Source: Geosiphon pyriformis uo1 (taxonomy: Eukaryota; Fungi; Glomeromycota). From it: a DNA stretch of 64,000 nt. Under the pieces are notes generated by a model, which saw only the letters and a list, made by a program, of their open reading frames with translations, had not been told where the DNA came from and did no database searches. Where the stretch lies: NCBI GenBank assembly GCA_016748015.1, contig JAAOMT010000200.1:246984-310983 (forward strand), read 5' to 3'. A program made the position numbers and the translations under genes. Within the stretch, counting starts at the first letter, position 1; each line of letters opens with the position of its first letter. Positions 22,601-62,624 of the stretch are shown piece after piece.

Positions 22601-25600
22601 ACAAAGAATATTAAATATGAATGAACTGAAATCCAACAAGAAGCTTTTAACATCTTAAAAAGAAAACTTATTCAAGTTTTAATACTGATCTATTCAAATT
22701 ACAACAAGCCATTTATCATTATTACCAATGTATTCAATCAAACATTAGGAGCTGTATTGTCACAAAAAAAAGCAGATAGACAAGAACATTCAATAACATA
22801 TACCAGCCAAAGTTTAAGTTCAACTAAAAAAAACTGGAACTTTAGCATTAAAATAAAAAGAATATTTAAGTCAAAAGTTTAATGTATATACTTATTACAA
22901 AGAATTGACATCAATTCAAAAGCAAAAATTTGAAGATAATTGTTATGCAAGATAGAAAATAGAACTATTACTATTTAATTATACAATATATTATAAAAAT
23001 AAAAAAAAAACAGAAATACTGACAGTTTGTAACAAATGAAATAAATCTAAAAACATTTTAATCCAAAAATATAACAAAAAATGAACACACAAAAATATTA
23101 ACAATTTCAACATTATATCTATACTTAACAGTTCAAGAAGAAATTATCTCAAAAAGAACAAAACAACATAAAACAACAATTAAAATATTTTATCACTTAC
23201 TAAGATATACTATATTAGAAAAACAGAAAATATCCAGATCAGTCACTTAAAGTAATCACAGAACCAAAAAAAAACAATATTGTTTAATATGTATTCAAAT
23301 CTAACAGTAGGATATTTTTATAAAGAAATAATTATAAAAAAAACCAAAAAAAAATACTATTGGCCATTTATATATCCAGATATTATTTAATATATTCAAA
23401 ATTGTAATACTTGTTAAAAAAGAAAAAAAACCAGATTCAGTAAACTGTTAAAATTAATTAAAGTAAAACAATCATTTAATTAAATTAAAATTGACTTAGT
23501 CAAATCATTAACAATAACCAGCAAAAACAATTAATATATAGCAGTAGTCATAAAATATTTTATAAAATGGCCAGAAGCAAAAACAATTCAAAAAACAGGT
23601 GCAAAATTTATAGCTGAATTCATATACCAAAATTAGATTTGTCAACATAGATGTTTAAAAAAATTATTATCAGATCAAAAAACTTACTTTGTGAATAAAA
23701 TATTAACAGAATTAAGTTAAATAAATGGAATTAAGAGACTATTATTATTACCATATCATTTACAAACAAATAACTTAGTCAAAAAGTTTAATAAAACATT
23801 ATATAAAGCAATAAGCAAGATTAGCCAAAAAAATCAAAACAAATAAAATCTGTTTATACTATTGGTATTATTTGTTTATTAGACAATAAAGCAAGATACT
23901 ACACAAGCAACACTATTTGAACTTATTTATAGTAGAACAACAATATTACCAGTTAAGATAAATATCAATATATATCTAACAGAACCAATAACAAAAGTCA
24001 ACTTCCAAAGAAATTACTAAAAAAAACATATAACTTAATGAAAACATTAGAAAACAAAAAGTAAAAAGCAGCTAAAAACATCTAAGTCACAAACAAAACA
24101 AAAAAAATAATATAATAACCAATTATCAGATAAATTAATTAAATTCAGGATTAAAAACAAAGTACTTTTGCATTTTATTAAAGCAAAAAAACAATAAAAT
24201 AGAAAATTTGATTCCAAATGGAATGGACTATTTTATATTAAAAAAATTCTAAAAAATAGAACTTATAAATTAAGATAGAACAACAAAATCTTAGCTAAAG
24301 CAGCATATAAAAATTAATTGAAACCATATTACAATATAGTATTATTATCCACCAGTAATATTTTACAACTAGAAATACAATAAATATTAATTCAATTAGA
24401 TAAGATTCCATGAGACTTAGAACCAATTATAATCATTAACACAAACACATCAAATTAATCTACAAAAATAATATATAAAACACAATATATACAACAAAAA
24501 CAACAATAAAAAAATAAAAATTCCAAACTACATCTATATAATAGCTTAATAATTATTTCAGACCATAAGTTAACAACAATTAGATATAAAAATTATTATC
24601 AATCACCAAACAATTTGTTATTAAAACACCAAAAGAAAAACAAAAACAAAAATTACTCCATATTAGTAATCATAGAACCAAACAAAGTACTGGTTAAATA
24701 AAGTCATAGAAAAAGTAAAGAACACTTTTGGGAAAATGCCAATAATAATTTTAATAGAAGAGCTAACTAAAAAAACTGGAAGCTATAAATAAAACAACTT
24801 TCAGTATTATATTGTTATTATTAGTTAAGAAAAAAGCTAAATATCTAAAAATTATATATTAATAAATCCAAAAAAATATTTAATCAGAAAATAGTACAAT
24901 AAATTAAAGATTTTATTGAAAAGAAAACAAATTCTATACTATATATCAAAACAATTTACTAATTATACACTATATTTTAAAACTATTTAGAAATACTATT
25001 ATATTAAAAAATAGAAATAATAACTGTTAACCAGTGGAAAAAAATAAACAATTCTCAATATAAAAAAATAAAAAACAGAATTGAACAAACAATATTATAA
25101 AAAAAAATAATGAACTTAATTTAAAATAAAAATTTTAATAGAGCTTAATATTAAAGAAGGAGATAATATTACTTATAGAAAAGTACAAGATAGAAAATAA
25201 AAAAAACAGATAAAAAAATAGACCAATAAAAGAATAAAATTTAGTAAGTAAGTACAATATTAAAAATAATAACACATTGCTTAATAATAAGCATATTATT
25301 AATAAATTATGGCACATTGTTCAGCAATAAACACATTGTTAAAAAATCATAGCATATTGCTTAATAATAAGCATATTGTTAAAGAAAATAAAGCATATTG
25401 TTCAAGAAAATATGAGATTTCATATAACAAAAATTATGTATATATAGTAAGAAAGTTAAAAACAGAAAAGACAGAATTAATTGAGACAAATCAGTTATAA
25501 CTTATTAATTATTCAATATCTTTTCTTTTAAAAAGTAGTTTTTTATAACTTAAAATAGAATTAAACTACATATCAATAAAATATTAATTATTACTTGAAT

Positions 25601-26119: not shown

Positions 26120-27439
26120 ATGATAACATAGATCTGAATAATATGTAAATAGTATTTCTTGATATATAATAATATAACAAGTAAATAAATGAAACAATTC
26201 TTGGTTTTTTTTAAGTAGACAGTTGTATTTTCTTTGATATTTTTATTAGAATTTGCAATTTTTCTTTATTTTTGTTTGTAAAGATAATAGAAAATTTCTA
26301 CTGGATGTAGTTTTCAATTTTTTAATTTATTTCTGTAATTAGTGGAGTAAATAAATAATTTTGTGAAAGCATAGTATTTTAAAGTAATTATTATAAAAAT
26401 TTTTGAGAACAGCTTTTAAATCTTTTTGGTTTCTCAAGTAAGATTTAATTTTTTTGTTAACATAAAAATTAAAAGCTGATTCTATTGGCCAATAGTTATT
26501 TGTTAGTTTAAGATAAATTTGGTAATATTAAAATAAAAATTTGGCAAATTTTAAATGATTTTCTTCTATGATTTTTTGGTCTCCTATTTTTCTGAATAGT
26601 TAATATTAGTGTTAGTTCTCTGTTAGATTATATCTTATAAGAAGCACTAAATATTATAAATAATTATTTAGAGTGTTAAAAACTCATAATTTAGTGCTCA
26701 ATAGCTGTTGATAATAATGGTTTCTAAAGATTTTGAAGTCCAAAAATTTTGGTTAAGTTTTTTATATAATAAACAGAAATTCAATTAATGATTTTATTCT
26801 ATGAATTTTTTTCTTCACCATAATGGCTAGTTTATTCTGATAGTTGTGCTTTTTTGGTAAGCTATTCTTAAATTTCTACTTTTGTTCTCAAGTTTTTTAT
26901 CAGACTATTCTTAATGTCAATTATTTAGTATCTAATTCTTTAATTAATTAATAAATAACAAAAAAAAGAAAAAAAAGAAAATAAAAAAAAAATAAAAAAA
27001 AAATAAAAAATTAATATTCTATCAATAGCTGTAATTAAAAACTATTGATTTAGTGTAATTAAGTATTAGATTTTATTAACATAAATTATTATTAATATAA
27101 AAGTAATTAATATTTTTTAATTACTAATAACAATATAAATTAGATAATAATAAGTATATTTATTAATATAATTATGTTTTTATTTTAAATTATAGAATAC
27201 TATCTTTTAAAAAAAGAGATATTGTTATTTTAAACTGAATTATCTGTTTTTATTGCTTTTAACACTTTTGCTATATATACATAATTTATGTTATATGAGA
27301 TTTTTTAAAATTTTTCAATTCTTTTAAAAAAATTCTAGAATTTTGGAATTTTACAATTTTTTAAGAAGAATCTTAGAATTTTTTTTTATTATGTTTATTT
27401 TTGTTTGGCTAATATAATTTTTAATTTTTATAAGTAACA
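26120..27439 (-). mobile_element. Gypsy family 1 element G remnant: 5' LTR (26652-27439), PBS, gag N-terminal region
   Basis: Minus strand reads ENHLKFAKFLF...ESAFNFYVNKKI as in A and B; degraded PBS at ~26635-26651. Confidence 0.82.
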
Positions 27440-29921: not shown

Positions 29922-30787
29922 TGTTACTCATAAAAAAAAAACAGATATAGAAAATAGCAGACCAATGAGAGAATAGTATTTAGCACATGAGCACAATGCT
30001 TAGCAATGTGGAGCAATATCAGAAATTATGGCACATTGCTCAGCAATATGGAGCAATGTCAGAAAACATGGCACATTGTTCAGCAATGTAGAGCAATGTT
30101 AGAAATTAGAGCACATCACTCAGCAATGTAAGTATTGCTCAAGAAATCATAACACATTGTTTGGAAATATGAGTGATTTCATAGAACATCAATTATGTAT
30201 ATATAGTGGGAGTATTAGAAGTAGAAAAAACAGACCTCTCAGTTTAGATTTAATCTAAGCAACCTTCCATTCACAAATATCAAATAAATAATTATTTACC
30301 ATCCAAATTCACTCTCCACTATCAACACTTTATATTGATAGTAATTAATATTTAACTACACTGTAACAATAGCTCTTAATCATGGCTATTAACGGGATAT
30401 TAACTTGCAATTGCTTTTGTTTACTTCTTTATTTTTTTTTATTTTTTTTTATTTCTTTTTGTTATTTCTTTGGTTTTACTAAATTGATTAAGGATTAAGC
30501 ACTAAAATACAGACATCATAGAGACTGGTAAAAGACCTGTGAAACAAGAGTAGAACACTTATAGATTTGAGGATAGCTTATCAAAAGAATTACCAACCAC
30601 CACACTGAGAAAGAAATTCGATGGAATTGCGATTCTGGGAGGCTACTGAAAACAACTATTAAATCTCTGTCCATTATACAAAAAACTCCACAACCAAAAC
30701 CTTCAGATATTAACACTCAAGTAACAACTAAGCACCAAGTTACAGATTTTTTATTTGACTTGAGACCCCAAATAATTATCTGTAACA
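29922..30787 (+). repeat. 5' LTR of A
   Basis: TGTTAC...TGTAACA; direct repeat of 39202-39958. Confidence 0.95.
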
Positions 30788-30806
30788 TTTGGTGTTTTCT
30801 GTGAGG
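30788..30806 (+). other. Primer-binding site (consensus TTTGGTGCTCCCTGTGAGG from A, B and C)
   Basis: TGG two nt after the LTR; complementary to a tRNA ending ...CCUCACAGGGAGCACCA; resembles elongator Met or Ile(UAU) 3' ends, identity not established. Confidence 0.8.
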
Positions 30807-30847
30807 TATAATTCTACAGAGAACCAGCACCAACAAATAAATCAACA

Positions 30848-33800
30848 GTGGCAGAATCAGAAAGTATAAGAGCAAATTATTTAGAATTTGTGAAATTCTT
30901 ATTTCAACACTACTGTCAACACTTGGAATTGAACCACAATCAGATATTAGCAGAATTAGCCTTTAATTTCTATGTCAATGAAAAAATTGTCTATTTGTTA
31001 AGAACACCAGTAAACACTGAATTAGTGAGAGAAACTTTTTATCATGAATTAATCCAAAACACCAGCTTATCAACAAATTATAATTTTGCATCCATCATTA
31101 CTAAGATTAATAAAGAAATTAAACATCATACACAACAAAGATATCCAATCACTTATGCCAGTAAAGGCAAAGAAAAATTGCAAACACCAGTAGTAATACC
31201 AAAACAAATACAACCACCTACTTGGAAGAAAACCAGAGTTAAATCACCAACAAACCCATCATACCACTATACACTTAGAAACACCATTAACATCACATCA
31301 ACAGGTGCATCCACATCACATGTGACATTAATCTTTGGACAATTTTCATTTCAGAGTAAACAAAGGAAAGAAGATCTTTTAAGATCATATGGCGCGTATT
31401 TTGAAAAATTTAAGTCTCAATCGCCAATGTCATCAGAACTTTGATTTCTACCACCCCAACCAGATTTTGGAATCATGAGTTCCTGGAAAGTAATAGAATT
31501 GGAGGAAGAACAAGAAGAAGAGAAAGAAGAATCTGAAGATCAAAAATTTACTTACCAGAACCCAATCCCAGAAAACCTGAACATTGAAACACTGAATTTT
31601 TAGACTCAGCAAAATCCAAATTTAGAAAATCCAGAAATCAGAACTCCAAATTTCCAAATGCAGCACAATCAGAACAATCGAAACCCTGACATCAATAATT
31701 AACAACACTTATCTCCAGTAATCGGGATTAATTCAGCTCCACCAATCAACGAACAGCAACAGCAGCTACTTCAACCACCTCAACAACTACAGCAGCTGCT
31801 TCAACAGCCATAACAACAACTGCAACAACCAAATGTCAATCCAATGGCCTATGCTTTGATAGTGAAGCTTGAGAAATTTACCGGCAAAGAAGATGATGCC
31901 CAAGTGTGGCTAAATGATGTGGAAAAAACCATTGCAGCCAATGGCTAAAATGACACCAGAGCCATACAGGCCATTTTTTACTTTCTCCAAGATACCACTG
32001 ATTCATGGTATCAAAGCTGGCTAACAAACCCCAAGATTTTGCTGTATTCAAGCTTGCATTCCTACAATACTTTAGCAACAACAATAGTATTAATCGGTTA
32101 GCAAACACTTTTACCACTATCAAACAAGGAGAAAATAAAGCAGTCACTACTTACTTAGGACACTTCCATAGAAATCTGTACTAGATTCAAGCAATTCAGG
32201 CTGATTACTTTACAGCACCACAAATCCTAAACCAATTTATTAGAGGCCTGCACAGTAGCATTCTCCAACACATATGCCCAATGCATCCAGTAGACCTTCA
32301 AGCTATAGTTAACAATACCAGAGATTTTAAAGCAGCTGAACTCAAAGCCAACCATGCCCAAGCCATAAATCTAGTGATGAATGGATCATCTGAATTGGAT
32401 TCTAAATTGAAACAATTCAGTAATTCCATTAACCAAAAGCTGGAAGGGTACTTAGCTGACAATTGCACAATTTATCAGTCATCCCAATGATACAATAATT
32501 TAGGAATGACAAATCACCCACAAAATCAGTCATGTTCCTCATCATCATCCAATCAGCCATGGCAGCAAGAGATGCATATTTGCCACTACTGTGGTAAACA
32601 AGAACATTTGAAAATCAATTGTCAGTTAAGAATAGAAAACCAATGATCGAAAAATCAATATTGAAATTTTGATTGCAGGTTTTTAGCTCTAAGTTATCAA
32701 TCAATCTCAACAATATATCAACCAAATTACATACTTATGATGCAGCCACAAATTTATCAATCACCAATTTATCAGCCAACAGCACCTATTGTTTATCAAC
32801 TACAGTTTCAACCTATATATTAGCTGCAGTCACAAATAATCTATCAAACACCTGCAGTTTAAACACCATCACCCAACCTCACTCAAATGACATTAGGAAA
32901 TCTTAGATCAAAAGTCACCCAAAACTGGAGATTGGTAATGGTTGTTTATCAACCAATTCTTAGTTCATTCAACCAGTTATCAGAATCATGACAGTGGAGT
33001 TCGAAAACTGGGTATACTCAAAACCCGAGTTCTCAGAACTATTTAAGCCTTCTGGTTACCCCAAAAGACACCTCACCCAACACCCAGAAACCCAACCAGA
33101 AGTAACCACTTACCAATATTCCGCCAGCCACTGTTATAGAAGACGAGTCTCTAGTAGCAATATTTCTTTTCGAAATCGAGGAACTGACAGAAACTCCTTT
33201 ATTCAGTGGAGCTGCACTCGAGGAAAAACCTATTACAGCAATGTACACGAATGCCAAAATTGATGGTCAGTTTATCAAACTGATCCTAAATAGTGGATCA
33301 GCTGGCAGCATTATCACAAGACAGCTCATGAACCAATTAGGTTGCTGAGTTAATTGAGCTGCCAGTGCAAAAATAATTACAGCTGATGGAACCACCAAGA
33401 CTCCAATTGGTGAAATAGATAACTTGCTTATAGAAATCAATGGCATCATTGTACCAATCAAGGTATTAGTCATGGAAGCCACTCAATACCAAGCACTAAT
33501 GGGTAATAACTGGCTGTCCAAAATCAATGCAACACTTGACTGGAACACCCAAGAGCTCTAGCTTAGCCAGAACAGATGACACACATACATACTAGCTATA
33601 TGTGACCATTTCAAACTCATCACCACACCATCAGCTCCACTTATTGAATTGGAAAAAAAAAAGGAAAAACCTACCTGGGAAGCCTATCAAGTTTCTTAGA
33701 CCAATAAAAACAACCACAATAAATTACCACTGATACTATCCTGGGATGATAAAGAAAAAAGAAAACAAATAGAAAAACTTACCTAGAATCTGGATCAAGT

Positions 33801-36800
33801 CTGAGGAACTAACAATGATCAAAATGAACTACCAACAACCTGGGAGTGGGAAGAGAATAACTACAAAGAAAAAGGGAAAGAGAATAAAAAAATTCCAACA
33901 CCAACCACTATTCACCATACATATACTTACACACTACCACAACCAAATTATTGTTGACCAAAGCTTATATGTGCCAATTGTGGCAAGAAATTGTTTTCAA
34001 TGAGCACATGCTGTGGCAATGATGAAAAATACCAGATGGCAACTAAGTTTTATTGCCGTGCATGTTTCATTAAATGTTTTGGAAGGCCAAAACAAGTGAG
34101 AAAATGAGATAATACACCATGTTTAGCTTGTGGAGAAACTCTTCCAGATGAAGAAATGTGGAATGACATTCCTGGACAAGGAGGAACGTGTGATGAAATG
34201 TGCCAATATACAATCCTAATTAATGATTGAGTATACAAAGGCACACCAATTGATGACATCTGGAAAAAAGTGTTGTGATAATTAAAAAAATATTCTCACG
34301 ATGAACACAAACTCTGGAGAATGGCATATGTGAAAGCAGAAGGCACAACAACCAGTGAACTACTGGAAATCAAAAACAACCCTCTATCACTTCCTGAACC
34401 TGAATATGTCCAAACTTTTGACGTCTTTAACAACATTAAGGATGATTCAGAGGAATTCCATAAACATTACCAATAATTAGCACCCACCAGAAAGGAACAG
34501 AAACAATGCTTGGAAGAAATAAACACCCAATTATGTGACCACTGTTTGATTCCATGTGACTTCCAGTATTGCAATGAGTGTGATCTTATTTACAATCTAC
34601 CACCACACATGATCTACATGATCTCAAAAGAAGATGAACCAATAAGCAACTGTGCATCAGAATTGGAATCAATTTTTAATCCCAATTCAAACTCCAACAA
34701 TGATGATAACAAAAACACCAGTTCTAGCTCTGCTCAAAACAGCAACAAAAATAACAACAATTTGGATCCCAATTCAAACTCTGAAACATATATTGCCCTC
34801 CCTAATCTTACCAAAGAGCAAAAACTGAAATGATTCAGCAATAATAATGAAGGTATTATGCCTGAACACACACATAATACTGATGTAAAATTTGATTTGA
34901 GATATCTGGAGAAAGATTCCATCAAATTGGAATCTTACTTACACATTTGTATCGATCTGAAAATAGTGCTGAAAATTCCAGTAACAACAATAGTTCAATT
35001 AGCATCTAGAAGTAGTTTAGCAAAAAAGAGAATCAACATCAGAGGAGGAATAATTGACGCAAAATACATAAGAAATATTATTGCTATGCTACAAAATGAC
35101 TCAGAAAAAACATATACTATAGATCCAAATAAAAAGATAATACAGGCAATATTCCTATCTCTAGTGAAAGTAGCTCAGCTAGTGTCAGTGGAAAACAGAG
35201 AAGAATTGGGAATTACTGCTAGAGAGATACAAGGATTTGAATCAACGGATAGAATAAATATACCAGTTAATATAACAGAAAAAGAAATTGTTGACAAAGA
35301 AGAAATTATCTCAAACTGTCACACAATTTTCATTCCACCATATGATCAGTATATGTTAGCTATAAAAAGAGAAGTAAAGAATCAAGCTCAGTTGTTTAAA
35401 GCAGAAGCTACCATTTGCAAATTAGGAGAAATTGGACTCACCAATCTCTACATATCAGTCAACAGCCCCAAGAATATCAAAATTTTCATCTACAACACAA
35501 CAAGATGTGTTATTGAAATACCAAAAGGAACCATCATTGAATATTTAACTACCAAAGTTGAGAACCAACCACCAAACCATATTCTAGATTTTCCACAGCT
35601 TTGTGGATATGTGGACATCACATTACAAACCATCTACAGATGAAACGAATGTTATCTGTTCTAACCAGAACAATTGGAACAGATAAACATGGGGAATCTA
35701 GACCTACTCCAACAGATACAACTAAAGACGTTACTTAGCAACTTCAATGACATCTTTGCCAGCGAAAACGAATTTGGCAGAACCAACATCATCTAGTATC
35801 AGATCAAAACTGGAGATGCAATGTCAATTAAACAAAGAACATACAGAGTACCACCAGCTAGCCATGAAATTATTTGTCAAGAAATTAACCAAATGCTTGA
35901 CAATGGGCTAATTCAGTCATCAATGAGCTCATAGTCATCACCAATGATACTAGTCTGAAAGAAAAATGAGAAAATCTGCTTTTGTGTAGATTACTAGAAA
36001 CTAAATAGAGTAATCAAAGAAGATAGCTATCCAATGCCCAAAATTCAAGAGCTGTTCAATGTTTTTGGAGGAAATAAATGGTTCTCGATACTGGATTTGA
36101 ATAGTAGTTACTGGCAAGTAGCCATGGATCCAGCCGACAAAGAGAAAACAGTCTTTACCACAAGAGAAAAAAATTTTGAATTTGAAGTCATGCCATTTGA
36201 ATTGATGAATACACCGGCCATATTCTAATGACTAATAGAAATTGTATACACTGGACTACTATGGAAGTCAGTAGTTGTATACTTGGATGATACCAATGTG
36301 TTTTCAAAAACATTTGATGATCATTTGTATCATCTTTAACAAGTGTTCAAAAGATTGAAAAGAGCCAGAATAAAATTAAATGCAACCAAATGTTTCTTTG
36401 GAAAAACTGAACTCAAGTTTTTGGGACATATGGTGAGCAAAGATGAAATAAAAACAGATCCAAACAAGATTGAGATTGTCAAAAACTTTTCAGTACCAAA
36501 TAATCTCACAGAATTGAGAGCATTTTTGAGATTTGCTGAATACTACTGCCATTTCATCAAGAATTTTCCAAAATAGCCCAACCACTACACCAACTTCAAA
36601 CAAAGAATGTAAAGTATGAATAGACAAAAACTCAACAAAAAGCTTTTGATATCTTAAGAAGAAAGCTTATTCAAGCTCTAGTATTGATGTATCCAGATTA
36701 CAGCAAACTATTCATTATCACTACTGATGCATCTGGCCAAGCATTGAGAGCAGTACTATCACAGAAAAGACCAGATGGAAGAGAACATCCAGTAGCTTAT

Positions 36801-37082
36801 GTCAGTAGAAGCTTAAGTCCAGCTGAAAAGAACTATAAAACTCCAGCACTAGAATACTTAGCTATCTATTGGGCTGTCATCAAATGAAAGGAATACTTGA
36901 GCCAAAAGTTTGAAGTGTATACTGATCACAAAGGATTGACTTCAATTCAAAAACAAGAATTTGCAGACAATTGTTATGCCAGATGGAAAATAGAACTTTC
37001 ACCATTTAATTATACAGTACATTATAAAAAAGGAAAAAACAATGGAAATGCTAACAGACTGTCACGAATAAGACAAATCTAA
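30848..37082 (+). pseudogene. A ORF1: N-terminal extension - capsid Gag - CCHC - aspartic protease - Cys-rich - dUTPase - RT - RNase H
   Basis: KLEKFTGKEDDAQVWL (capsid), CHYCGKQEHLKINC, LILNSGSAGSII (PR), FCVDY, VYLDDTNVFS (RT), TTDASGQAL (RH), ends NANRLSRIRQI*. Confidence 0.92.
34858..35250 (+). pseudogene. dut: Trimeric dUTPase domain in A
   Basis: All five motifs recognisable: (DVK)FDL, SRSSLA, GGIIDAKYIRNI, IIQAI, REIQGFEST. Confidence 0.9.
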
Positions 37083-37112
37083 AAACATTTCAAACCAAAA
37101 ATATAACAAAAG

Positions 37113-38516
37113 ATGAATATACAAAAATACCAACAACTACAACATTATATAGATATTCAACTGTTCAAGAAGAAATTATCTCAAAAAGAACAAAGAAACA
37201 TTAAACAACAATCAAAATATTTTATCAATTATCAAAATATACTTTACTGGAAGAACAGAAGAAATTCAAATCAACCAATCAGAGTAATCACAGAACCAGA
37301 AAAAAAAACAATATTATTCAACATACACTCCAATCCAACAGCAGAAGATTTTCATAAAGAAGCAACCATGGAAAGAACTAGAAAAAGATACTATTGGCCA
37401 TCTATGTACCCAGATATTATCCAATATGTTCAAAATTGTGATGCTTGTCAAAGAAGAGGTAGAACAAAACTCAGTGAACTATTAAGACCAATCAAAGTAG
37501 GACAATTATTCAACTGTATCGGAATTGACTTAGTAGGACCATTAACAATCACCAGCAGAGGAAACAGATATATCACAGTAGCCATAGACTATCTTACAAA
37601 ATGGCCAGAAGCAAAAACCATTCAAAGAGCAAATGCAAAATCTGTTGCCGAATTCGTTTATCAAGATTTGATTTGTCAACATAGATGTCCAAAAAAACTA
37701 TTATTAGATCAAAGAACTCACTTTGTAAACAGAACATTAGCAGAATTAAGTCAAAGATTTGGAATCAAAAGACCATTATTATCACCATATCATCCACAAA
37801 CTAATGGACTAGTTAAAAGATTTAACAGAACATTGTGTGAAGCAATCACCAAAATCAGTCAAGAAAACCAAGACAAATGGGATTTGTTCATACCATCAGT
37901 ATTATTTGCTTATCAGACAATGAAACAAGATACTGCACAAGCAACACCATTTGAATTAGTATATAGTAGAACAGCAACATTACCAATTAAGATAGAAGTC
38001 AACACTTACCCAACAGAACCAATAACCAAAGATAATTTTCAGAAAATATTGCTAAGAAAAACATATGACTTAATGGAAACATTAGAAAATAAACAGTAAA
38101 GAGCAGCTGATAACATCCAGAAGTCACAAAAGAGACAAAAAAAAAGACACGATAACCAACTACCAGATAAACCAGTTGAATTCAAGATTGAAGACAAAGT
38201 ATTTTTACATCATACCAAAGCAGAAAAACAATGGAGTGGAAAATTTGACCCCAAATAAGACAGACCATTTCACATAGAAGAAATTCTTGGAAATGGAGCT
38301 TATAAATTAAGATGAGACAACAAAATTTTAGCCAAAGCATCACATGGTGATTGACTGAAACCATATTACCAGATAGCATCATTATCTACCAATAACATTC
38401 CACAACTAGGAGTACAAAGAATACTAGTTCAACCAGATGAGATTCCATGAGATTTGGAACCAATCATAGTTATTAAACCAAACACATCAAATCAAACAAC
38501 CCAAAAGAGTATATAA
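37113..38516 (+). pseudogene. A integrase (HHCC, DDE core, GPY/F module)
   Basis: HSNPT..FH...RYYWP...CDAC; IGIDLVGPL; LLLDQRTHF; PYHPQTNGLVKRFNRTL; DRPFHIEEILGNGAYKL. Confidence 0.93.
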
Positions 38517-38550
38517 AGACACAATACACATGACAAAAGCAACCAAGAAA

Positions 38551-39186
38551 ATGGAAATACCAGATCATATTCACACTATAGCTTAACAACTGTTCTAGGT
38601 CTTAAGTCAACAACAGTTAGACATGGAAATTATTGTTAACAACCAAACAATTTGCTATTGAAACACCAAAAGAAAGACAAAGAATACCTCATATCAACGG
38701 TTACCAAAGAATGATAAAAACTGGTCAAATAACATAATAGAAAAAGTAAAGAACACTTTTGAGAAAATACCTATTATGGCACCAACAAAAAAACTTACAA
38801 AAAAGAATTGGAAGCAATAGACAGAACAACTTTCAATATCATATTGTTACTACCAGTTAAGTCGGAAGTTGAATATTCAGGAGTTGTATACCAACAAATT
38901 CAAGAGAATATTCAACCAAGACATAATACAACAAATTGAAGAATTTATTGAAAAGAAAACAAATTCAACACTACATGTTAAAACAATGTACCGACTATAC
39001 AACATATTTTGAAACTATCTAGAAATACTGTTACACTCTGACATGGAAACCATAATCATTAACCAATGGGGAAAAATGAACAATACATAAGTAGAAAACA
39101 TGAGAAACAGAGTTGAACAAACAATACTTGAAAAAAAAATATTGGAATTAATTCAAAATGAAAATTTTAACAAAGCTTAATATTAA
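38551..39186 (+). pseudogene. Unknown ~210-aa domain or ORF between the integrase and the PPT of A
   Basis: MEIPDHIHTIA...NF(N/D)(K/R)AQY* alignable with 61168-61797 and 24514-25153; internal stops are explicable as CAA/CGA/CAG>T. Confidence 0.75.
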
Positions 39187-39201
39187 AAAAGAAGGAGATA
39201 A

Positions 39202-39958
39202 TGTTACTCATAAAAAGAAAACAGATATAGAAAATAGCAGACCAATAAGAGAATAGTATTTAACACATAAGCACAATACTCAGCAATGTCAAAAATCATG
39301 ACACATTGCTCAAGAAATCATAGCACATCACTTGGAAATGTGAGCAATCTTGTAGAACATCAATTATGTATATATAGTGGTAACATTAAAAGTAGAAAAG
39401 ACAGACCTCTCAGTTTAGATTTGATCTAAGCAACCTTCTATTTACAAATATCAAATAAATAATTATTTACCATCCAAATTCACTTTCCATTATCAACACT
39501 TCATGTTGATAGTAATTAATACTTAACCACGCTGGAACAATAGCTCTTAATCATGGCTATTGACGGGATACTAACTTGCAATTGCTTTTGTTTACTTCTT
39601 TATTTTCTTTTATTTTCTTTTATTTCTTTTTGTTATTTTTTTGGTTTTACTAAATTGATTAAGAATTAAGCACTAAGATACAGACATTATAGGAACTAGT
39701 AAAAGATCTGTGAAACAAGGGTAGAATACTTATAGATTTGAGGATAGTTTACCAGGAGGATTACTGGCCACTACACTGAGAAAGAAATTCAACAGAATTG
39801 TAATTCCAGAAGGCTACTGAAAACAACTATTAAATCTCTGTTCATTATACAAAGAACTCTACAACCAAAACCTTCAGATATTAACACCTAAGTACTAACT
39901 AAGCACCAAGTTACAGATTTGTTATTTGACTTGAGACCCCAAATAATCATCTATAACA
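39202..39958 (+). repeat. 3' LTR of A, preceded by PPT (39185-39201)
   Basis: AAAAAAGAAGGAGATAA|TGTTAC...TATAACA. Confidence 0.95.
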
Positions 39959-42564
39959 CCATACATGTACCAAAACATTTGATAATATATAGAATTATGT
40001 GATAGTTGTTAAAAAAAAAGGAACTCATCTTATTGAATTTTTAAATTCAAATAAAGTTGAACAACTTTTTAACAAAGTGAAAAACAATTTAGTTAGACTA
40101 CTACTTATTACTACTTAAAAAAACTGTTATATTGTAATTGCAGTAGATTATCTTATCAAATGGCTTAAAGTTAAAGCTATTTTAAGAACAAACACAAAAT
40201 TAATAGCAAATTTTATCTATAAAAACATTATTTGTAGACATGAATATTCAATTAAACTTCTATCTAATCAAGAAACATACTTTGTAAACAACTTGATACA
40301 AAAAATTTGTAAATAATTCAATTTTAAATAACTTCTATTATTATTATATTATTCATAAACAAATAGATTAGTGGAATATTTTAACCAAATATTATGTGAA
40401 TTACTAGAAAATTTCAATTAATTTTGAGCAGAAATAAAATATTTTTATTCTATCAATATTTTTAATATATAGAATACTAAAACAAAATACAATAAAGCAC
40501 ATACTATTTGATTTAACTTATAAAAAAACAACAATATTATTAGTCAATTTTACTGTAAAAACATATTTAGTACAACTAATTACAAAAAAAAACTTTCAAA
40601 AAAACATTTTAATAAAGAGTTTATACTCTTTTTAGCACATTAGAAAAAAAATAACAAATTGCAGCCACTTATATTAAATACTTTTAAATACAACAAAAAA
40701 ATGGCATAATAACAAATTGCCACTTATTACTAACAAATTTAAAATTAGAAATAAAATTTTTTTACATAAAACTAAAGCTAAAAAACAATGAAATAAAAAA
40801 TTTGATCACAAATAGAATAAACTATTTTATATTTACAAAGTTCTAGACAATAGATTATATAAATTAAGACTTGATAACAAAGTTTTAGCCAAAGTTGTAT
40901 ATAAAGATTAATTAAAGCATTATTATTTTAGAAACAATCTTGAACTATTAATTTCACAAATTGGTACATATTTTTTTTAATTAATCTTGAAAATATTTCC
41001 TAAAATTTAGAACTAATAATTATAATAAAACAACAACCAAATCTGAACATTTAATTTAATTTTATTAGTATTTTTTTAAAATAATTCAAAAATATTAAAC
41101 AAAAATAATAAAATAATCACCAAAAAATATTTAAACCAAAAATATATAAAACTTTTATACCAAAAATAATTTTTTTTTTATTTTTTTATTTCTAAAAAAT
41201 TAATTTAAATTCTATTTAACTTTATAATGTTTATTTTCTGAAACATTTAACAAATATTCCAAAAATTAATATTAGCTTTAAAAACATTTTTTGACTTATT
41301 TATAATTATCAATGAAAATCAAATCAATTATACTTATAAAAAAACTATAGTCTTAATAGTAAATAATTCCCAAAAATATTATCCTTATAGAAAAAACATA
41401 AGAAATTATTCTGAAAGTCAATTATTAAAACTTTTAAAGCAAGCTTTAAAAGAAAACTTATTGTTTATATTTATTGATATTTTTTTAAATGCTATAATAC
41501 AACAAAAACTTCAAATGTGTTTTAATAAAAACAGTAAATATACTTCTAGTTATCAATATTTCCAAATTAGAAAACATTATACCAACAGAAACTAGAATTC
41601 AAAGCAACTAATATTTATTCTAAAGCTATATAAAAGTGAATACACAATAAATTCAAGACAACAGCTTGATCAACAAATGCTTATTATAAACTTAAAACAG
41701 TTTTTAAACTCTATAACTTATTTAACATATGTGAAAATATCCTACAAAATTTAATACTTTAACCAATAAAAATTCAATATATTAACAAGCTTACAAAATT
41801 GAAATTTTAACAATTTTCAGACCAAATTACTTTAATAATTTAGAATTACTATCTCAAAATTACAAATAATGCTTGGACTTTAATAGAACTTAGTTTTAAG
41901 AAGAAAATTATGTTACCAGTAGAATTTTAGTTATTAACTAGCATGAAATTACTCTTATAATTTCTATTATTAATTAATATATATTAATATTATTTCAATT
42001 ATTACTTATTACTTAAATCAAATTATTGAATATTACTATTTAATTAATAACCAAATTTATATAATAAAAATTAGGATGATTAAATGACACAATACTCTAA
42101 ACTATTTAATATTTAAAAATTTGCTAAAATTTACAAAAATTTACCAAAATAATAGATAGTTTATCAAAATAGTTTATAATTTGATGAAATAACTTGTAAT
42201 TTATTAAAATATATTTTAAATTTGTCAAAATTATAGCAAAAAAAAAGTTCAAGTTTATAAACTAGTACTATAACAAATTGTATAAAAGAAAAGCTTCTTT
42301 TTTTGAGAAAAAATATTTTATTTTATTTTCTTTAGAATTAGCTTACAATATAAATTCAAAATAAAAATATACTTTAAAAACCAATTTTCGAAATAATTAC
42401 ACTTGAAATTCTCTAAAACCCAATTAACATTTTGAAATTAATTAGCTACCAATTTTAGTAAATATTAGTAACTTTAAACCTAAACCAGAAAACAATTTTC
42501 TTAACAAAATTTCATTACTTTTATATTTCTTTTGTTTTTTTTTGTTTTTTTATTATAATTATTA

Positions 42565-45130
42565 ATGTGGCCCTATTCTTAAATAGTTTAAGCTTTCTGT
42601 TAACTTTTTTAGTGGTATAGCTTTCTTTCCTACTTGCTCCTTTTTTTTAAGTAATATTAGACCTTTAATATTTTTGAATCAAATAAGTTTGAATTGGTTT
42701 ATGGTTGTTTATCAAATGTTAATGTTGGTAGTTTGTCTGTCTATATAGATGAATTTCTAAAAAACTTGGAGACAACCAACATAATGGCTAGTGCTGTGGT
42801 TTTTTTTGAAGATGTTAATTTAGGTCTGGGTGTTAAAATTTTTGGCTTGATGTCTTTTATATTAATAGAGTTGCAGGCTATTGTGTTGGTTCTTAAGTGT
42901 ATTCTTCTCCATAACTTAGTTCAATTATTTACAGACGATCAAACAGTTTTAGATACATGCAAATTAGAATTAAGTTTGGTGTATTCAGATTTTCAGAATT
43001 AGTGTTGAATTAAATGATAACATATCATAAATCTAATTTATAGCAAGAATTTGAATTTTAGCTGGCACAAAGTAAGAAATCACTCAAGTATTTTGGGTAA
43101 TAAATGTACTAATGCACTTGTTGACACTATATTTCTTTGTAATTAGTGCTTTTTTCTCTAATTAAAAAATTTTTATGTTAAAACTAATAGTAGTAATGTT
43201 TTTGGTAATTCTAAATATTTTGTTTATAAGGTTTTTTAGTCTGTTTATTGTACATATTAGGAGATTAGATCTGTGTTTAAGGTTTTGGTTAGTTGTTTGC
43301 TCTTGGACATTAATTGGCTTAGTTTATCTTTGATGTGGCATCCTAACTTGTACATAACTACTGGTTTTACTACTATTATTTGTACTTATTTTATGAAAGT
43401 TTTGCACTATTGACTACTTATTGCTATTTAAAAAAATCTGTATAACAAATGCTATTTCAGTATAACATGGTTGTATTATGGTAATATTAAGGTCTTAGAC
43501 CATGTTTTTTTTTGTGCAATTAACAATTTTGTTTGTCATCATTTGTTGGATGCCTATGTAAATGCTTAAAGAGTGCTTTCTGGTCTTCTTCATTTTTTTC
43601 ATGTGTATTTCAGCTAATGTTCTCTTGCATTTTTGATGCTATAGTGTGTATGGCTTTTTGCAAGAGCTTTGTCTTTAATGGTTGGGATCAAAAAGCTGTT
43701 TCTGTCTTTGGTAATTCCAAAGTTGTGAATCTAATAATTGTGAGCTTTGTGTGTAATTTCTGTTTTGCTTTTAGAAAAAAAATTTTGTTGGTTTGTGCTA
43801 GACATTATGTCTTTATAAAGAAGAATGAGCTGATTTCACATAATAGTTCAGCTCTTGTTTCTATTTTTAGATTGTTTATAGTGCTTTCTACTAGTGTAAT
43901 TAAATTGCTTGATATTACTAAGACATTTAGTATTAGTTTTGGTTTATGTAAGTCTTGTTTTTTTTTAGGCATTAGAGATTCAATTTTAATTTATGTAGAT
44001 GCATAGTATTGTCCTAATCAGTTCAAGTAACTAGTGTTATGAGTAAACTAAGTGAGATATGATGATAACATTTGGTGTTCAAAATTTGAGTTTCTAAGAA
44101 GCTTTTGATAATTTTTTTTTAGTAGGCTTGTTTGATGTATTAGTGTTATTAGTTTCTGAAAGTCTGTTTAATTGATATAAATTTACTCATAGAGTTTTTT
44201 AGTTATAAGGCACAGAGAAATATTTCACAGTATTACAACTTCTTATATGTGAATGTAAGCTATCTTTTCCAAACTAACAAGTACAGTTATTAGAGTCTAA
44301 TAGTGTTTTTTCACCTTTCTAATAAGCTATTAAGATAATATTAATATCTAAACTTAGAAGTAGCTTCTTTTTTTTACTAGACTATTATAAAGTCTATTTT
44401 TAGACAGTCAATTTTCTTATGTTGCCACTTTATAAGAGAGAATAAAATAAAAAAAATAAAAAAAAAATAAAAAAAGATAAATTAATATTATTAATTGCTG
44501 TGATCAAGAGTGATTGATCCAAATTATTAAGGGTTTGAGATATTTATGCTAAGAATATTTGTTCTAGAATGAAAGTATGAAACAAAGATTAGTTTGATTT
44601 AAACATGGGATAATTGATGACTATGTATTAATAATTTCGAGTTTTCAAATAAGTTCTTTATTTTTGTAAAATGTAATAATTATAAGAAAAAAGAAAATTG
44701 ATTCTTTTTTTGGCTGTCTTTCTAACTTCTATAACTATTTATTTTTATATATTTTTTTTGGTTCTACAGGATCGTTTCATTTTTGTTAGCTATTGCTTCA
44801 CTATTTCTGTTATTGCCTTGTTTTTCTATATTATTACTAGTTATTTTATGTTTCAACTAGTTATTTTATGCTATAATATGTTATTAAGTTTTGTATTATG
44901 TTATCTTAAGTTATTACATATTATTTTGTATTCTTTTATATTATTTTGTGTTATTTTATGTTATTCCATTTTTGGTCACATTTTCTTCATAATTTTGGAT
45001 TGATTTTTTTACTTGGGTAATACTAGTCATGTGTAAAAAAAGCATAATTTACATCTAATTTAAATCACTTATATAATGTATTATATTAAGCAATATGTAA
45101 ACTTTACTTGTTAAATTAAATAAAATAAAA
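42565..45130 (+). mobile_element. 5'-truncated LINE (RNase H, CCHC, 3' UTR, A-rich tail) inserted in the 3' LTR of E
   Basis: SLSVYIDE...ELQAIVLVL...FTDDQTV homologous to 7600-7870; probable TSD ATAATTATTA at 42555-42564 / 45131-45140. Confidence 0.85.
44035..45022 (-). repeat. Solo LTR, family 3, in the LINE 3' UTR
   Basis: TGTTAT...GTAATA termini; perfect TSD CTAG (44031-44034 / 45023-45026); flanks rejoin into a 3' UTR homologous to 8900-9010; orientation inferred from the CTCTTGATCACAGC motif shared with family 1. Confidence 0.82.
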
Positions 45131-45446
45131 ATAATTATTATTAAAATAGTCTACAGACAAAATTCTTGTAGAAAAGTTAACTTTTACAACAAAGTAACTA
45201 CACATTTCAGTAAGTTTTCAGATAAGCAATTTCTAAGAAAGAGTTGATATTTTCTATAAGATAACTAAACAAAATAATTGGCATAAAATTGGTTATTTTA
45301 CTTATAAACCCAGTGATTCAAATTATAGAAGATAATTTGAAAATAAATTCAGTTATCAGAGGTTTACTAGTTTTCAGAAAACGTAAATTAATAGCAAACA
45401 AACATTAACAGTATTTAAAAAAAGAAACCAAAAATTTTTGATAACA

Positions 45447-52469: not shown

Positions 52470-53257
52470 TGTTACTTATAGAATATAGAAAGTAAAGTAT
52501 TATTAATCAGTAGATATTAGCCAATCAGAAGTAAACGCAGTAAATGTGGAATTCCAAGATTCCTTTCAGAAGAATTGCAGGATTCCTCTCATCAGGAATT
52601 GCAGAATTCCAGAAATTCCAGGATTTCTGTCGCAAAGAATTGAAGAATTGAGAAATCTCAAATATGTATATATAACAGTAGTATTAGAAGCAGAAAAAAC
52701 AGAATTGACACCAAGCATCTTTAGCTTAGTTATCACAATCCTCAAATAAATAATTATTCACTATATCAAATTCATTTTTCACTATCAACACTTCATGTTG
52801 ATAGTAACTGATACTTAACCATACTGGAACAATAGTTCTTGATCACAGTTATTGACAGGATACTAACTTGCAAATTGCCTTGGCTTATTTTTTTATATTT
52901 CTTTATTTTCTTTATTTTTTTGTAATTTTGTTATTGTGCACTAACCAATTGATTAAAAGCACTAATTACTAAGGTCAAAGATTGCCTGGTAAAAGACCCC
53001 TGCAAGTGGGTAGAACACGTACAAGAGATACAGATTACTTATCAGAGAATTGCCAACCACTAAGCCAAGAAAAAAATTGACAGACTTGTGAGTCTGGGAA
53101 GCTATAGATAAAACAACTATTGAATTTTTGTTCATTATACAAAAGACTCATTTGGAAAACCTTCAGATACCAACCCCTTAAAGATATTATCAACAATGCA
53201 AATAGCTTTGAGCACCAAGTTACAGGTTTGATATTGGCCAAACAAACAATTGTAACA
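52470..53257 (+). repeat. 5' LTR of B
   Basis: TGTTAC...TGTAACA; direct repeat of 61811-62624. Confidence 0.95.
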
Positions 53258-53319
53258 TTTGGTGCTCCCTGTAAGATATAATCCTACAGAGAATCAGCAC
53301 CAACAAACACTATCCAAAA

Positions 53320-59668: not shown

Positions 59669-59730
59669 AAACATTTCAAACCCGAAAATATAACAAAACC
59701 AGAACAATACCAACGAAAATATAACAAAAG

Positions 59731-61107
59731 ATGAACATACAAAAATATCAACAACTTCAACATTATATAATCACTCAACAGTTCAAGAAGAATTTATCTC
59801 AAACAGAATGAAAGAGTATTAAACAACAATCAAAATATTTTATCACTCACCAAAATATACTTTATTGGAAAAATAGAAGAGATCCAGATCAACCAACTAG
59901 AGTAATCACAGAGCCAAAAAAAGAGACAATATTATTTAACATGCACTCAAATCCAACAACAGGACATTTTCACAAAAAAGCAACCATGAAAAAAACCAGA
60001 AAGAGATACTATTGGCCATTAATGTATCCAGACATTATTCAATATGTTAAAAATTGTGATACTTGTTAGTGAAGAGGAGGAACAAGACCCAGTAAACCAT
60101 TAAGACCAATCAAAGTGGGACAACCATTTGACCGTATTGGAATTGATTTAATCAGACCATTAACAATCACCAGTAGAGGAAACAGATACATAGCAGTAGC
60201 TATAGACTATCTTACAAAATGGCCAGAGGTGAAAGCAATTCAAAGAGCAAATGCAGAATCTGTTGCCAAATTTGTTCATCAAGATTTGATTTGTCGATAT
60301 AGATGTCCAAAAGAATTATTATCAGACCAAGAAACTCATTTTGTGAACAAAACATTAACAGAATTAAGCCAAAGATTCAGAATTAAGAAATCATTATCAT
60401 CACCATACCATCCACAAACCAATGGATTAGTCGAAAGATTCAACAGAACATTGTATAAAGCAATAGCTAAGCTTAGCCAAGAAAACCAGAACAATTGGAA
60501 TTTGTTTATACCATTAGTATTATTTGCTTATAGAACAATGAAACAAGATACTACACAAGCAACACCATTTGAATTAGTGTATTGGAGAACAGCAACATTA
60601 CCAGTAGAGAGAAAAATTAATACATATCCAGCTGAACCAATAACAGAAGAGAATTTTCAAGAAACATTGCTAAAAAGAACATATGACTTAATGGAAACAT
60701 TGAAAAACAAACGAAGAAGAGCAGCTGAAAATATTCAAAAGTCACAAGAAAAACAGAAAAAAAAACACAATAGTCAACTACCAGACAAACCAGTTGAATT
60801 CAAGATTGGAGACAAAGTACTCTTATATTGTACCAAAGTGGAAAAACAATGGAGTGGAAAATTTGACCCCAAATAGGATGAACCATTTCACATAGAAAAA
60901 ATTCTAGGAAATAAAGCTTACAAATTAAGACTGGATAACAAAATCTTAACCAAAGCAGTACATGGAGATTGACTGAAACCATATCACAACACCACACCAC
61001 TCTCGACCAGTAATATTCCACAATTAGGAGTACAGAAAATACTAGTCCAACCAGATGAGATTCCACAAGATCTGGAACTAATCATTATTATTGACAACAA
61101 CATGTGA
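59731..61107 (+). pseudogene. B integrase
   Basis: HSNPTTGHFH...RYYWP...CDTC; IGIDLIRPL; LLSDQETHF; PYHPQTNGLVERFNRTL. Confidence 0.93.
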
Positions 61108-61137
61108 AATTGATCCGTCAAAAGAATATATAAGGAT

Positions 61138-61797
61138 ATGGTTGACGTGACGAAAGATACTAGAAAAATGGAGATTACCAACAGCATCCATTCATTAGCA
61201 CAACAAATTTTTCAATTAATCCAACACCAGGAGATAGAAATTATAATCAATCAACAAACCATTCGATACAAAAGTACTACAAAGATACCACAACACAAAG
61301 CAAAGAGAAAACTCGAAAATGTTGTTGACAGAATCATGACCAAGGTAAAATTGGCCATAAAAGAACAACAGATAGTCGAATTATACCAAAAACTTACCAA
61401 AGAAACTTGGACTTAGTAGATGCAACAATTTCTAAGAAACTATTGTCATTTCCACTTGGGACAACACGTAAATATCCAGAATTTGTACACTGACAAAACA
61501 AAATAGTTATTTGATACAACAATACTGGGACAACTGGAACAATTTATGGGAAAGAACAATCTAATCACACAAGCTCAAATCATTTATTGGTTATACATGG
61601 GATTTCAAGACTGACTAGAAATTTTACTCAATACAACAATGAATACAATTACAAGTAATCAATTAGAAAAAATGACCAACACCCAATTTGAAAAACTACA
61701 AATTCAAATAACACAAGTAATACTCGAAAAAAAAGTTCAAGAAATAATTCAAGAGGGAGAATTAAAGAAATTAAATTTTGATAGAGCTCAATATTAA
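61138..61797 (+). pseudogene. Unknown domain or ORF between the integrase and the PPT of B
   Basis: MEITNSIHSLAQQIFQ...NFDRAQY*; homologous to 38551-39186. Confidence 0.75.
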
Positions 61798-61810
61798 AAG
61801 GAGGGAATAA

Positions 61811-62624
61811 TGTTACTTATAGAATATAAAAAGTATAGTATTATTAGTCAGTAGATATTAGCCAATCAGAAGTAGACACAGTAAATGTGAAATTTCAGGA
61901 TTCTTTTCAGAGGAATTGCAGGATTCCAGAATTCCAGAATTTCTCTCATCAGGAATTGCAGGATTCCAGAAATTCCAGAATTCCTGTTTCAAAGAATTGA
62001 AGAATTGAGAAATCTCAAATATGTATATATAATAGTAGTGTTAAAAGCAAAAAAGACAGAATCAACACCAAGCATCTTTAGCTTAGTTACCACAATCCTT
62101 AAATAAATAATTATTCACTATATCAAATTTATTCTTTACTATCAACACTTCATATTGATAATAACTAATACTTAACCATACTGAAACAATAACTCTTGAT
62201 CATGGCTATTGATGGAATACTAACTTGCAAATTGCCTTGGCTTATTTCTTTATATTTCTTTATTTTCTTTATTTTTTTGTGATTTTGTTATTGTGCACTA
62301 ACCAATTGATTAAAAGTGCTGATTACTGACGTCAAGGATTGCCTGGTAAAAGACCCCTACGAGTGGATAGAACATGTACAGGAAATACGGATTACTTACC
62401 AGAGGATTGCCAACCACTAAGCCAAGAAAAGAATTGACAAACTTGCGAGTCTGGAAAGCTACAGATAAAACAACTATTGAATCTCTGTCTATTATACAAA
62501 GAACTCATTTGGAAAACCTTCAGATACCAACTCCTTAAAGATATTATTAACAACATAAACAGCTTTGAGCACCAAATTATGAGTTTGATATTGGACCTGA
62601 GACCCCAAATAAACAATTGTAATA
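61811..62624 (+). repeat. 3' LTR of B
   Basis: AAAAGGAGGGAATAA|TGTTAC...TGTAATA. Confidence 0.95.

What the first reader, a model, noticed from the sequence alone, without database searches (positions are those of the whole stretch)
38500..39186. Conserved unknown ~210-230-aa domain after the integrase, where a chromodomain or env would sit
Seen: A, B (61138-61797) and F (24514-25153) all encode a homologous protein (MEI...H..AQQ.FQ...EII.N.QTI.Y; KLTK..W; YC...L...NIQ.LYT.K.K..F; LEILL...M.TI..NQ..KM.NTQ.E; NF..AQY*) that ends at the PPT. A and B are much more diverged here than in IN but keep the frame and these motifs. No signal peptide, TM segment or chromodomain signature is visible. Upstream, KR(V/I)YKD....TK.T(K/R)KME is conserved and is in frame with IN in B (across two TGA codons) and, up to the YK codons, in F, which suggests an IN C-terminal extension. 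However, a TATATAA lies exactly 41 nt before the MEI ATG in both A and B, so a separate accessory gene is also possible. Family 2 has a similar-sized ORF remnant at ~41227-41890. Inference: a new targeting, packaging or anti-silencing module.
Basis: partly seen in the sequence, partly recalled or inferred. Interest (0 to 1): 0.8.

Follow-up and report, generated by a model that had tools for sequence, protein, structure and literature searches.

The report
Third gene of fungal Gypsy retrotransposons
Jumping genes in what is likely a Geosiphon-type soil fungus carry, after their integrase gene, a separate small gene that selection has kept and that matches no described protein family, and it likely encodes a regulator of the jumping gene's own activity.

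Summary
The feature is real, but it is a separate third gene (ORF3), not an integrase extension. Decayed dUTPase-bearing Ty3/gypsy copies A, B and F encode homologous ~210-aa proteins between integrase and the polypurine tract; family 2 holds a distant remnant. Selection is shown (A/B pN/pS 0.44; 5 of 5 indels in frame). The TGA codons before ORF3 are the majority reading across related copies, while two internal stops of B are minority variants. Two metagenomic relatives carry ORF3 316 and about 720 nt behind the integrase stop. At least five ORF3 types exist; all named homologs are Geosiphon pyriformis hypothetical proteins. The protein is soluble, basic and mostly helical (pLDDT 71.5), with no Pfam, PDB or fold match. 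Integrase itself is a separate ORF (stop after RNase H in 6 of 6 copies). A TATA box shared by A and B suggests an internal promoter. ORF3 type goes with the type of palindromic U3 repeat, so a foamy-Tas-like regulator is my best guess (about 0.4); it is untested. New variant of a known kind (additional ORFs of LTR retrotransposons).

The parts
38551..39186 (+). ORF3 of element A (type A), decayed, 7 internal stops
   Evidence: intact natural homolog P0081 74% identical
38510..38517 (+). TATA-like octamer 41 nt before the ORF3 ATG; candidate internal promoter
   Evidence: one of only 3 TATAWAWR sites at aligned places in A and B, the other two being the LTR TATA boxes; function untested
37113..38516 (+). 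Integrase ORF of A, with its own in-frame ATG; the family stop position is 38493-38495, A's own IN-frame stop is 38514-38516
37080..37082 (+). Stop codon ending Gag-Pol after RNase H in A
   Evidence: stop at the same place, within one codon, in 6 of 6 copies aligned
30788..37082 (+). PBS and decayed Gag-PR-(Cys-rich)-dUTPase-RT-RNase H region of A
   Evidence: Pfam Retrotrans_gag, Ty3_capsid, aspartyl protease, dUTPase, RVT_1, RT_RNaseH; Gag start not determined
29922..30787 (+). 5' LTR of A; U3 has ~40-bp tandem repeats at 29991-30129 before the TATA at 30198
39185..39201 (+). Polypurine tract of A, overlapping the ORF3 stop
39202..39958 (+). 3' LTR of A (90% identical to the 5' LTR; 69 transitions, 5 transversions); AATAAA at 39454
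61168..61797 (+). ORF3 of element B (type B), 4 internal stops; second in-frame ATG upstream at 61138
61105..61113 (+). Two TGA codons ending the integrase ORF of B; majority reading in related copies
61127..61134 (+). TATA-like octamer of B
59731..61107 (+). Integrase ORF of B (H2C2, rve, SH3_Tf2-1; no chromodomain)
52470..53257 (+). 5' LTR of B
61811..62624 (+). 3' LTR of B; U3 repeats of another type at 61913-61984; AATAAA at 62102
24514..25154 (+). ORF3 of element F (type A), frameshifted and heavily decayed; IN-frame stop at 24456, TATATAA at 24472
41230..41924 (+). Distant ORF3 remnant of family 2; its frame runs over the PPT into the LTR start as in the metagenomic relatives
   Evidence: not detected

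Best explanation
This is a separate, selected third gene (ORF3) of dUTPase-bearing Ty3/gypsy retrotransposons, lying between the integrase stop and the polypurine tract, likely transcribed from an internal TATA promoter, and its soluble, basic ~25-kDa product is predicted to be mostly helical and likely binds nucleic acid to regulate the element's own expression. Shown: separate ORF, purifying selection, several types, no membrane segment. Inferred: a ~1-kb mRNA from the TATA box to the 3' LTR poly(A) signal, translation from the MEI ATG (the only ATG shared by types A and B, in a good initiation context), and binding of the palindromic U3 repeats through the helix-turn-helix-like stretch 123-153, as foamy virus Tas acts on its LTR. 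My odds by step: separate selected gene 0.92; internal promoter 0.55; regulator of element expression 0.4; LTR transactivator specifically 0.25.
For: Separate gene: no variant at 8% or more at 61111-61113; 61106 differs in 20%, 61107 in 10%; the CpG site 61103/61104 shows the decay mix, 49% and 25%; no indel listed; 61415 and 61418, two of B's internal stops, read otherwise in about 93% of depth; 59 of 81 gene models keep the N-terminus, all start at MEI or at most 17 codons before it, the stop is 19 codons before; 9 of 159 models hold IN-like sequence, none runs on into the ORF3 N-terminus; L001: IN 54% identical to B's, stop at 2137, 316-nt spacer, intact ORF3 in another frame; L002: stop at 133, ORF3 about 720 nt on. 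Selection: pN/pS 0.44 (0.36-0.55) against 0.62-1.45 in five other frames; transversions 27 at position 2 against 59 at position 3, p 0.0007; 5 of 5 indels multiples of 3. Promoter; TATA-like octamers also in F, family 2 and L001; no CTRAY branch motif or pyrimidine tract in the 80 nt before the ATG. Regulator: pI 9.1-9.5; invariant K135, N138, R148, N171 and no invariant acidic, Cys or His residue in 6 rows of five types; U3 repeat type differs between A/F and B as ORF3 type does; in L001 one 7-mer occurs 5 times, twice before the internal TATA and three times before the LTR TATA. Precedent for the layout: foamy Tas, CaMV P6 and Tor env (passages).
Against: No RNA, start-site or binding data. 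The 16 codons before MEI look coding-like (pN/pS 0.29, 95% 0.13-0.67) and type B has a near-fixed in-frame ATG only 11 nt after the TATA start (28 of 59 models begin there); if that is the true start, this TATA cannot serve it and reinitiation on the genomic RNA is more likely. A TATAWAWR arises by chance in about 45% of shuffles of the L001 and L002 spacers, and its distance to the ATG varies from 41 to 126 nt. The U3 motif is not enriched before the internal TATA of A or B. ORF3 and U3 are adjacent, so linkage alone explains their co-variation. The helix-turn-helix reading rests on secondary structure and conserved residues only; no fold search supported it. The contig evidence comes from one study that may be the window's own source.
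Confidence: 0.4

Rival explanations
1. ORF3 is a separate gene whose product counters host silencing (DNA methylation or small RNA) of the element.
For: Fast protein change at similar synonymous depth: transversions per codon at positions 1 and 2 are 0.23 and 0.13 in ORF3 against 0.024 and 0.018 in the protease, with 4-fold-site transversions 5 of 12 and 20 of 44; five types; window CpG observed/expected 0.17; TEs are highly methylated in Rhizophagus (passages).
Against: No likeness to a known suppressor was found; the copies here are heavily CpG-decayed; fast change also fits a regulator that tracks its LTR.
Confidence: 0.2
2. ORF3 is a trans-acting partner of integrase or Gag that steers integration or helps particle assembly and nuclear entry.
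For: It sits where chromodomains and other targeting modules sit and the integrase has no chromodomain; basic stretch at residues 41-56.
Against: It is not fused to integrase; integrase is nearly the same in A and B while ORF3 is 40% identical, which a tight partner would not favour; no target preference could be measured from two flanked insertions.
Confidence: 0.15
3. ORF3 is a translational helper, like caulimovirus TAV, that lets ribosomes reinitiate at the separate integrase ORF.
For: A stop ends RNase H in 6 of 6 copies and an in-frame ATG follows 9-11 codons on in A, F and L001; CaMV has the same order, with a TATA in the spacer after RT (passages).
Against: No sequence or fold likeness to TAV was found; integrase could come from its own or a spliced RNA, or from helper-free reinitiation.
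Confidence: 0.12
4. The region is a C-terminal extension of integrase, made directly or by stop read-through.
For: B and F keep the IN frame through the linker and A's shift is private; the linker looks coding-like; A has CAA at the stop position; long IN extensions without chromodomain exist (PMC5006619 passages).
Against: Two TGA codons in the majority of B-like copies, A-like loose ends also reading TGA; no continuous IN-ORF3 model among 159; different frame and long spacer in L001 and L002.
Confidence: 0.05
5. ORF3 is an env-like entry protein.
For: Position only.
Against: No signal-like or membrane segment, at most 2 cysteines.
Confidence: 0.02

Closest known systems
Sense additional ORFs between pol and the 3' LTR (aORF-3S; PMC7264820, parts 1-2 of 3 read) and 'add. 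ORF' of fungal Gypsy elements (PMC2864245, passages)
   Same: Sense ORF between pol and PPT, kept in the copies of a family, function unknown; PMC2864245 also reports dUTPase between PR and RT in a Postia element.
   Different: Plant sense aORFs are described as env-like with membrane segments; ORF3 is soluble and basic. No sequence link to a described aORF was found. Integrase is a separate ORF here.
ORF3 genes of bdelloid rotifer dUTPase-bearing LTR elements (PMC5408684, passages)
   Same: dUTPase in pol and a variable, family-specific third gene, one of them 210-230 aa.
   Different: Those are env-like, GDSL, DEDDy, coiled-coil or TM proteins; none of these families was hit here.
Foamy virus Tas (PMC6669543, passages) and Oikopleura Tor env (PMC4402516, passages)
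   Same: A 3' gene driven by an internal promoter; Tas activates both the LTR and the internal promoter. This is what ORF3 may work like.
   Different: No homology shown; promoter use and DNA binding untested here; no env.
Caulimovirus P6/TAV (PMC5902531, passages)
   Same: Last ORF after RT, TATA in the short spacer, upstream cistrons separated by stops.
   Different: Pararetrovirus; no homology shown; reinitiation help untested.
IN C-terminal extensions: chromoviruses, Dictyostelid DGLT-A/Skipper (PMC5006619, passages)
   Same: Same position behind the GPY/F-SH3 part of integrase.
   Different: Those are part of the IN polypeptide; ORF3 lies behind a conserved stop and has no chromodomain.
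CERV of C. elegans Cer1 (PMC10309623, abstract)
   Same: A Ty3/gypsy-type element with a novel accessory protein that regulates its own RNA.
   Different: Made from a spliced mRNA; no homology tested.

Membership tests
Ty3/gypsy LTR retrotransposon (host element) | LTRs TG..CA, PBS, PPT, short target duplication | tested here: met
   LTR pairs about 90% identical, TGG-type PBS 2 nt after the LTR, PPT, 4-bp flanks matching except for transitions
Ty3/gypsy LTR retrotransposon (host element) | Order Gag-PR-RT-RNase H-IN | tested here: met
   dUTPase between PR and RT
Ty3/gypsy LTR retrotransposon (host element) | Integrase made as part of Pol (usual, not strictly defining) | tested here: not met
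   stop after RNase H in 6 of 6 copies
Chromovirus | Chromodomain at the IN C-terminus | tested here: not met
   no chromodomain family in Pfam scans of IN of A and B (E up to 0.05) or of ORF3
Integrase C-terminal extension | Open frame from IN core into the domain | tested here: not met
env / env-like ORF | Signal peptide and membrane segment | tested here: not met
   highest 19-residue hydropathy 0.27-0.63 in 5 of 5 intact homologs; hydropathy only, no dedicated predictor
Sense additional ORF (aORF-3S) | Sense ORF between pol and 3' LTR, kept across copies | tested here: met
   4 of 4 window elements whose IN-to-PPT region was examined, plus L001 and L002
Sense additional ORF (aORF-3S) | Purifying selection | tested here: met
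Tas-like transactivator (works like) | Internal promoter | tested here: inconclusive
   shared TATA, but chance is high in spacers and a second ATG lies close to it
Tas-like transactivator (works like) | Binds and activates its LTR | not testable with these tools
   only co-variation with U3 repeats, confounded by linkage
Tas-like or HTH regulator (membership) | Sequence or fold homology | tested here: inconclusive
   no significant row
TAV-like reinitiation factor (works like) | Downstream cistrons separated by stops | tested here: met
TAV-like reinitiation factor (works like) | Protein raises reinitiation | not testable with these tools
   needs a reporter assay

The most novel reading that the evidence does not exclude
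A clade of 'complex' Ty3/gypsy retrotransposons of mycorrhizal-type fungi has a three-cistron layout (Gag-Pol | integrase | ORF3) in which ORF3, made from an internal promoter, is a new-fold, sequence-specific transactivator whose recognition helix changes together with palindromic repeats in U3: a foamy-virus-like regulatory circuit evolved separately in a fungal retrotransposon.
Probability: 0.2. Interest if true: 0.8.

Novelty: new variant of a known kind. Interest (0 to 1): 0.5.

Why it matters
LTR elements cover 41.2% of the G. pyriformis genome (PMC11952901, passage), and this gene is annotated there only as scores of 'hypothetical proteins'. Recognising it cleans up that annotation and defines an accessory protein family with intact natural members that can be expressed. 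If it is a regulator, it gives a testable reason for the expansion of these elements under heavy methylation and a fungal parallel to complex retroviruses. The separate integrase ORF poses its own question of how a downstream cistron is translated.

Full report
Setting. The window is AT-rich and CpG-poor (observed/expected 0.17). It holds two full-length decayed LTR elements, A (29922-39958) and B (52470-62624), a truncated copy F, and an older family 2 into whose integrase A is inserted. Pfam finds Gag, aspartyl protease, dUTPase, RT, RNase H and integrase in Ty3/gypsy order, with an SH3_Tf2-1 part and no chromodomain. All 73 homologs of the questioned protein from three searches are Geosiphon pyriformis hypothetical proteins (60, 10 and 3), so the host is likely that fungus or a close relative; this is inferred, as no genome is held.

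A, B and F are homologous, A and B stay in one frame, and all end at the PPT. A versus B gives pN/pS 0.44 (95% 0.36-0.55) over 204 codons, against 0.34 for integrase; the five other frames give 0.85, 1.45, 0.87, 0.62 and 1.17. Synonymous sites are saturated, so dN/dS could not be corrected. Transversions number 47, 27 and 59 at codon positions 1, 2 and 3 (p 0.0007 for 2 against 3), and 5 of 5 indels are multiples of three. Intact natural proteins exist for both types (P0003, P0070; P0081). The window copies themselves are dead.

It is a separate gene. Contigs of one DNA run stand in for other copies (one study, possibly the window's own source). Of 547 contigs laid on 61050-61180, none of the listed differences at 8% or more touches TGA 61111; TGA 61105 is the majority (20% differ at its second base, 10% at its third); the neighbouring CpG shows the expected decay mix; no indel is listed; A-like loose ends also read TGA at the second stop. 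By contrast two of B's four internal stops are minority states (about 93% of depth reads otherwise at 61415 and 61418); the other two were not among the 40 of 292 rows shown. Of 81 gene models, 59 keep the N-terminus and all start at MEI (26) or at most 17 codons before it (33), inside the 18 codons after the stop. Of 159 stored homologs, 9 contain integrase-like sequence, and in all 9 the ORF3 part begins at profile position 16 or later, so none reads through the linker; annotation filters could bias this count. Most telling, a metagenomic relative (L001; integrase 54% identical to B's over 414 aa) has its integrase stop at 2137, a 316-nt spacer and an intact 230-aa ORF3 in another frame, and L002 has ORF3 about 720 nt after the stop with a 128-aa ORF between. 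Against this: B and F keep the integrase frame through the linker, A has CAA at the stop position plus a private 1-nt insertion, and the 16 linker codons look coding-like (pN/pS 0.29, wide interval).

The family. A profile search of 1.84 billion representatives gave 94 hits at E 0.001. Of 20 looked up, 18 are G. pyriformis and 2 are unnamed metagenomic proteins. A tree of 19 rows separates five types, each one side of a starred branch; type D follows an integrase tail in gene models, the context of type C was not seen. With the wider profile the family 2 remnant is clearly homologous, though the narrow profile missed it. The Atlas's top feature hit for P0161 is an unnamed 98-member eukaryotic cluster, commonest Mucoromycota (0.93, 173 features), but a closterovirus coat and a helicase cluster score 0.93 and 0.92, so this is a lead only. 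The conserved end NF..AQY* is probably a DNA element beside the PPT: the same bases are read in another frame in family 2, L001 and P0136, where the ORF runs over the PPT into the LTR and gives the acidic tail. A and B are mosaics: transversions at 4-fold sites are 8 of 99 in integrase, 12 of 50 in RT, 20 of 44 in protease and 5 of 12 in ORF3, so integrase is unusually close, while ORF3 has also changed much faster at non-synonymous sites than the protease. In ORF3, 101 transversions are unique to B against 14 in integrase.

The protein. About 25 kDa, pI 9.1-9.5, no hydrophobic segment, 0-2 cysteines. AlphaFold with 30 diverse rows gave pLDDT 71.5, pTM 0.63: a weakly modelled N-terminal helix and beta hairpin, a basic disordered linker, and a helical core at 84-203. 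Across six rows of five types the invariant residues are Y98, G104, K135, N138, R148, F153, L160, L161 and N171. The lack of an invariant acidic, Cys or His residue argues against a metal enzyme. K135 and N138 sit in the turn between helices 123-133 and 139-153; the start of the second helix differs by type and R148 lies in it. That pattern suits a nucleic-acid-binding helix; this is inference.

How it is likely expressed and what it likely does. A and B each have 5 TATAWAWR octamers; 3 lie at aligned places, the two LTR TATA boxes and the one 41 nt before MEI. MEI is the only ATG shared by types A and B and has A at -3 and G at +4; AATAAA lies in each 3' LTR. That predicts a ~1-kb subgenomic mRNA. 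Doubts: the test is post hoc, such octamers arise by chance in about 45% of the L001 and L002 spacer shuffles, and type B has a second ATG 11 nt after the TATA start. U3 carries ~40-bp tandem repeats of palindrome-like units just before the LTR TATA, of one kind in A and F and another in B and a solo LTR; ORF3 type follows, but the two are adjacent. In L001 a 7-mer occurs only before the two TATA boxes (5 places), a pattern not seen in A or B. Foamy Tas, CaMV P6 and Tor env show that 3' genes with internal promoters exist (passages of PMC6669543, PMC5902531, PMC4402516). I therefore commit to a regulator of the element's own expression at 0.4, with anti-silencing 0.2, IN or particle cofactor 0.15, reinitiation helper 0.12, IN extension 0.05 and env 0.02.

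A linked finding. A stop ends RNase H at the same place, within one codon, in A, B, F, two family 2 copies and L001, and an in-frame ATG follows 9-11 codons on in A, F and L001 (B has a 32-nt insertion there). The layout is therefore Gag-Pol | integrase | ORF3. The frame shifts inside Gag of A and B lie at different bases and one G. pyriformis model reads through the site, so they are likely private deletions.

Comparison and novelty. Additional ORFs after pol are a known kind (PMC7264820, parts 1-2 of 3 read; PMC2864245 and PMC5408684, passages), as is dUTPase in fungal Gypsy elements. This ORF is not env-like, not a chromodomain and not an IN extension, and eight literature searches listed nothing describing it. 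Earlier notes of this scan report similar extra genes and a separate integrase in other fungal genomes; they are unchecked, and kinship with this family was not shown. Verdict: real, new variant of a known kind, function unproven; interest 0.5.

Noticed in passing
window 37080-37115 (A), 59666-59733 (B), 23048-23083 (F); L001 772-801: Integrase is a separate ORF: stop after RNase H in 6 of 6 copies, spaced from an in-frame ATG rather than overlapping it.
   Followed up: partly
window ~33970-34660 (A), ~56520-57180 (B): Cysteine-rich region of about 200 codons between protease and dUTPase, conserved in frame, with no Pfam hit.
   Followed up: no
window ~35270-35650 (A), ~57860-58230 (B): A conserved ~120-codon stretch after the dUTPase that by eye resembles a second, degenerate dUTPase; Pfam does not score it.
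   Followed up: no
L002 425-811: An extra 128-aa ORF between integrase and ORF3, no Pfam hit and no match in the window.
   Followed up: partly
window 29991-30129, 25258-25383, 61913-61984, 2923-3071: U3 tandem repeats of about 40 bp built from palindrome-like units, of two types; A's 3' LTR lacks about 110 nt of them.
   Followed up: partly
window 30788-30805, 53258-53275, 16820 (minus strand): PBS begins 2 nt after the LTR; by recall it resembles the 3' end of elongator tRNA-Met, which no call tested.
   Followed up: no
window 28244-29921 and 39959-42562: Family 2 element split by insertion of A inside its integrase; a second family 2 piece lies on the minus strand at 17942-19615.
   Followed up: partly
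window 2852-3830, 14504-15268, 16765-17627, 26599-27416: Further LTRs related to those of A and B, on both strands.
   Followed up: no
window 5491-8925, 42667-46480, 62625-64000: A different, GC-richer repeat with an RNase H hit at 7424-7870; B is flanked by it and several G. pyriformis gene models fuse ORF3 pieces to such sequence.
   Followed up: no
G. pyriformis gene models: Many annotated 'hypothetical proteins' are ORF3 fragments joined by predicted introns to LTR, Gag or flanking sequence, which likely inflates the gene count.
   Followed up: partly
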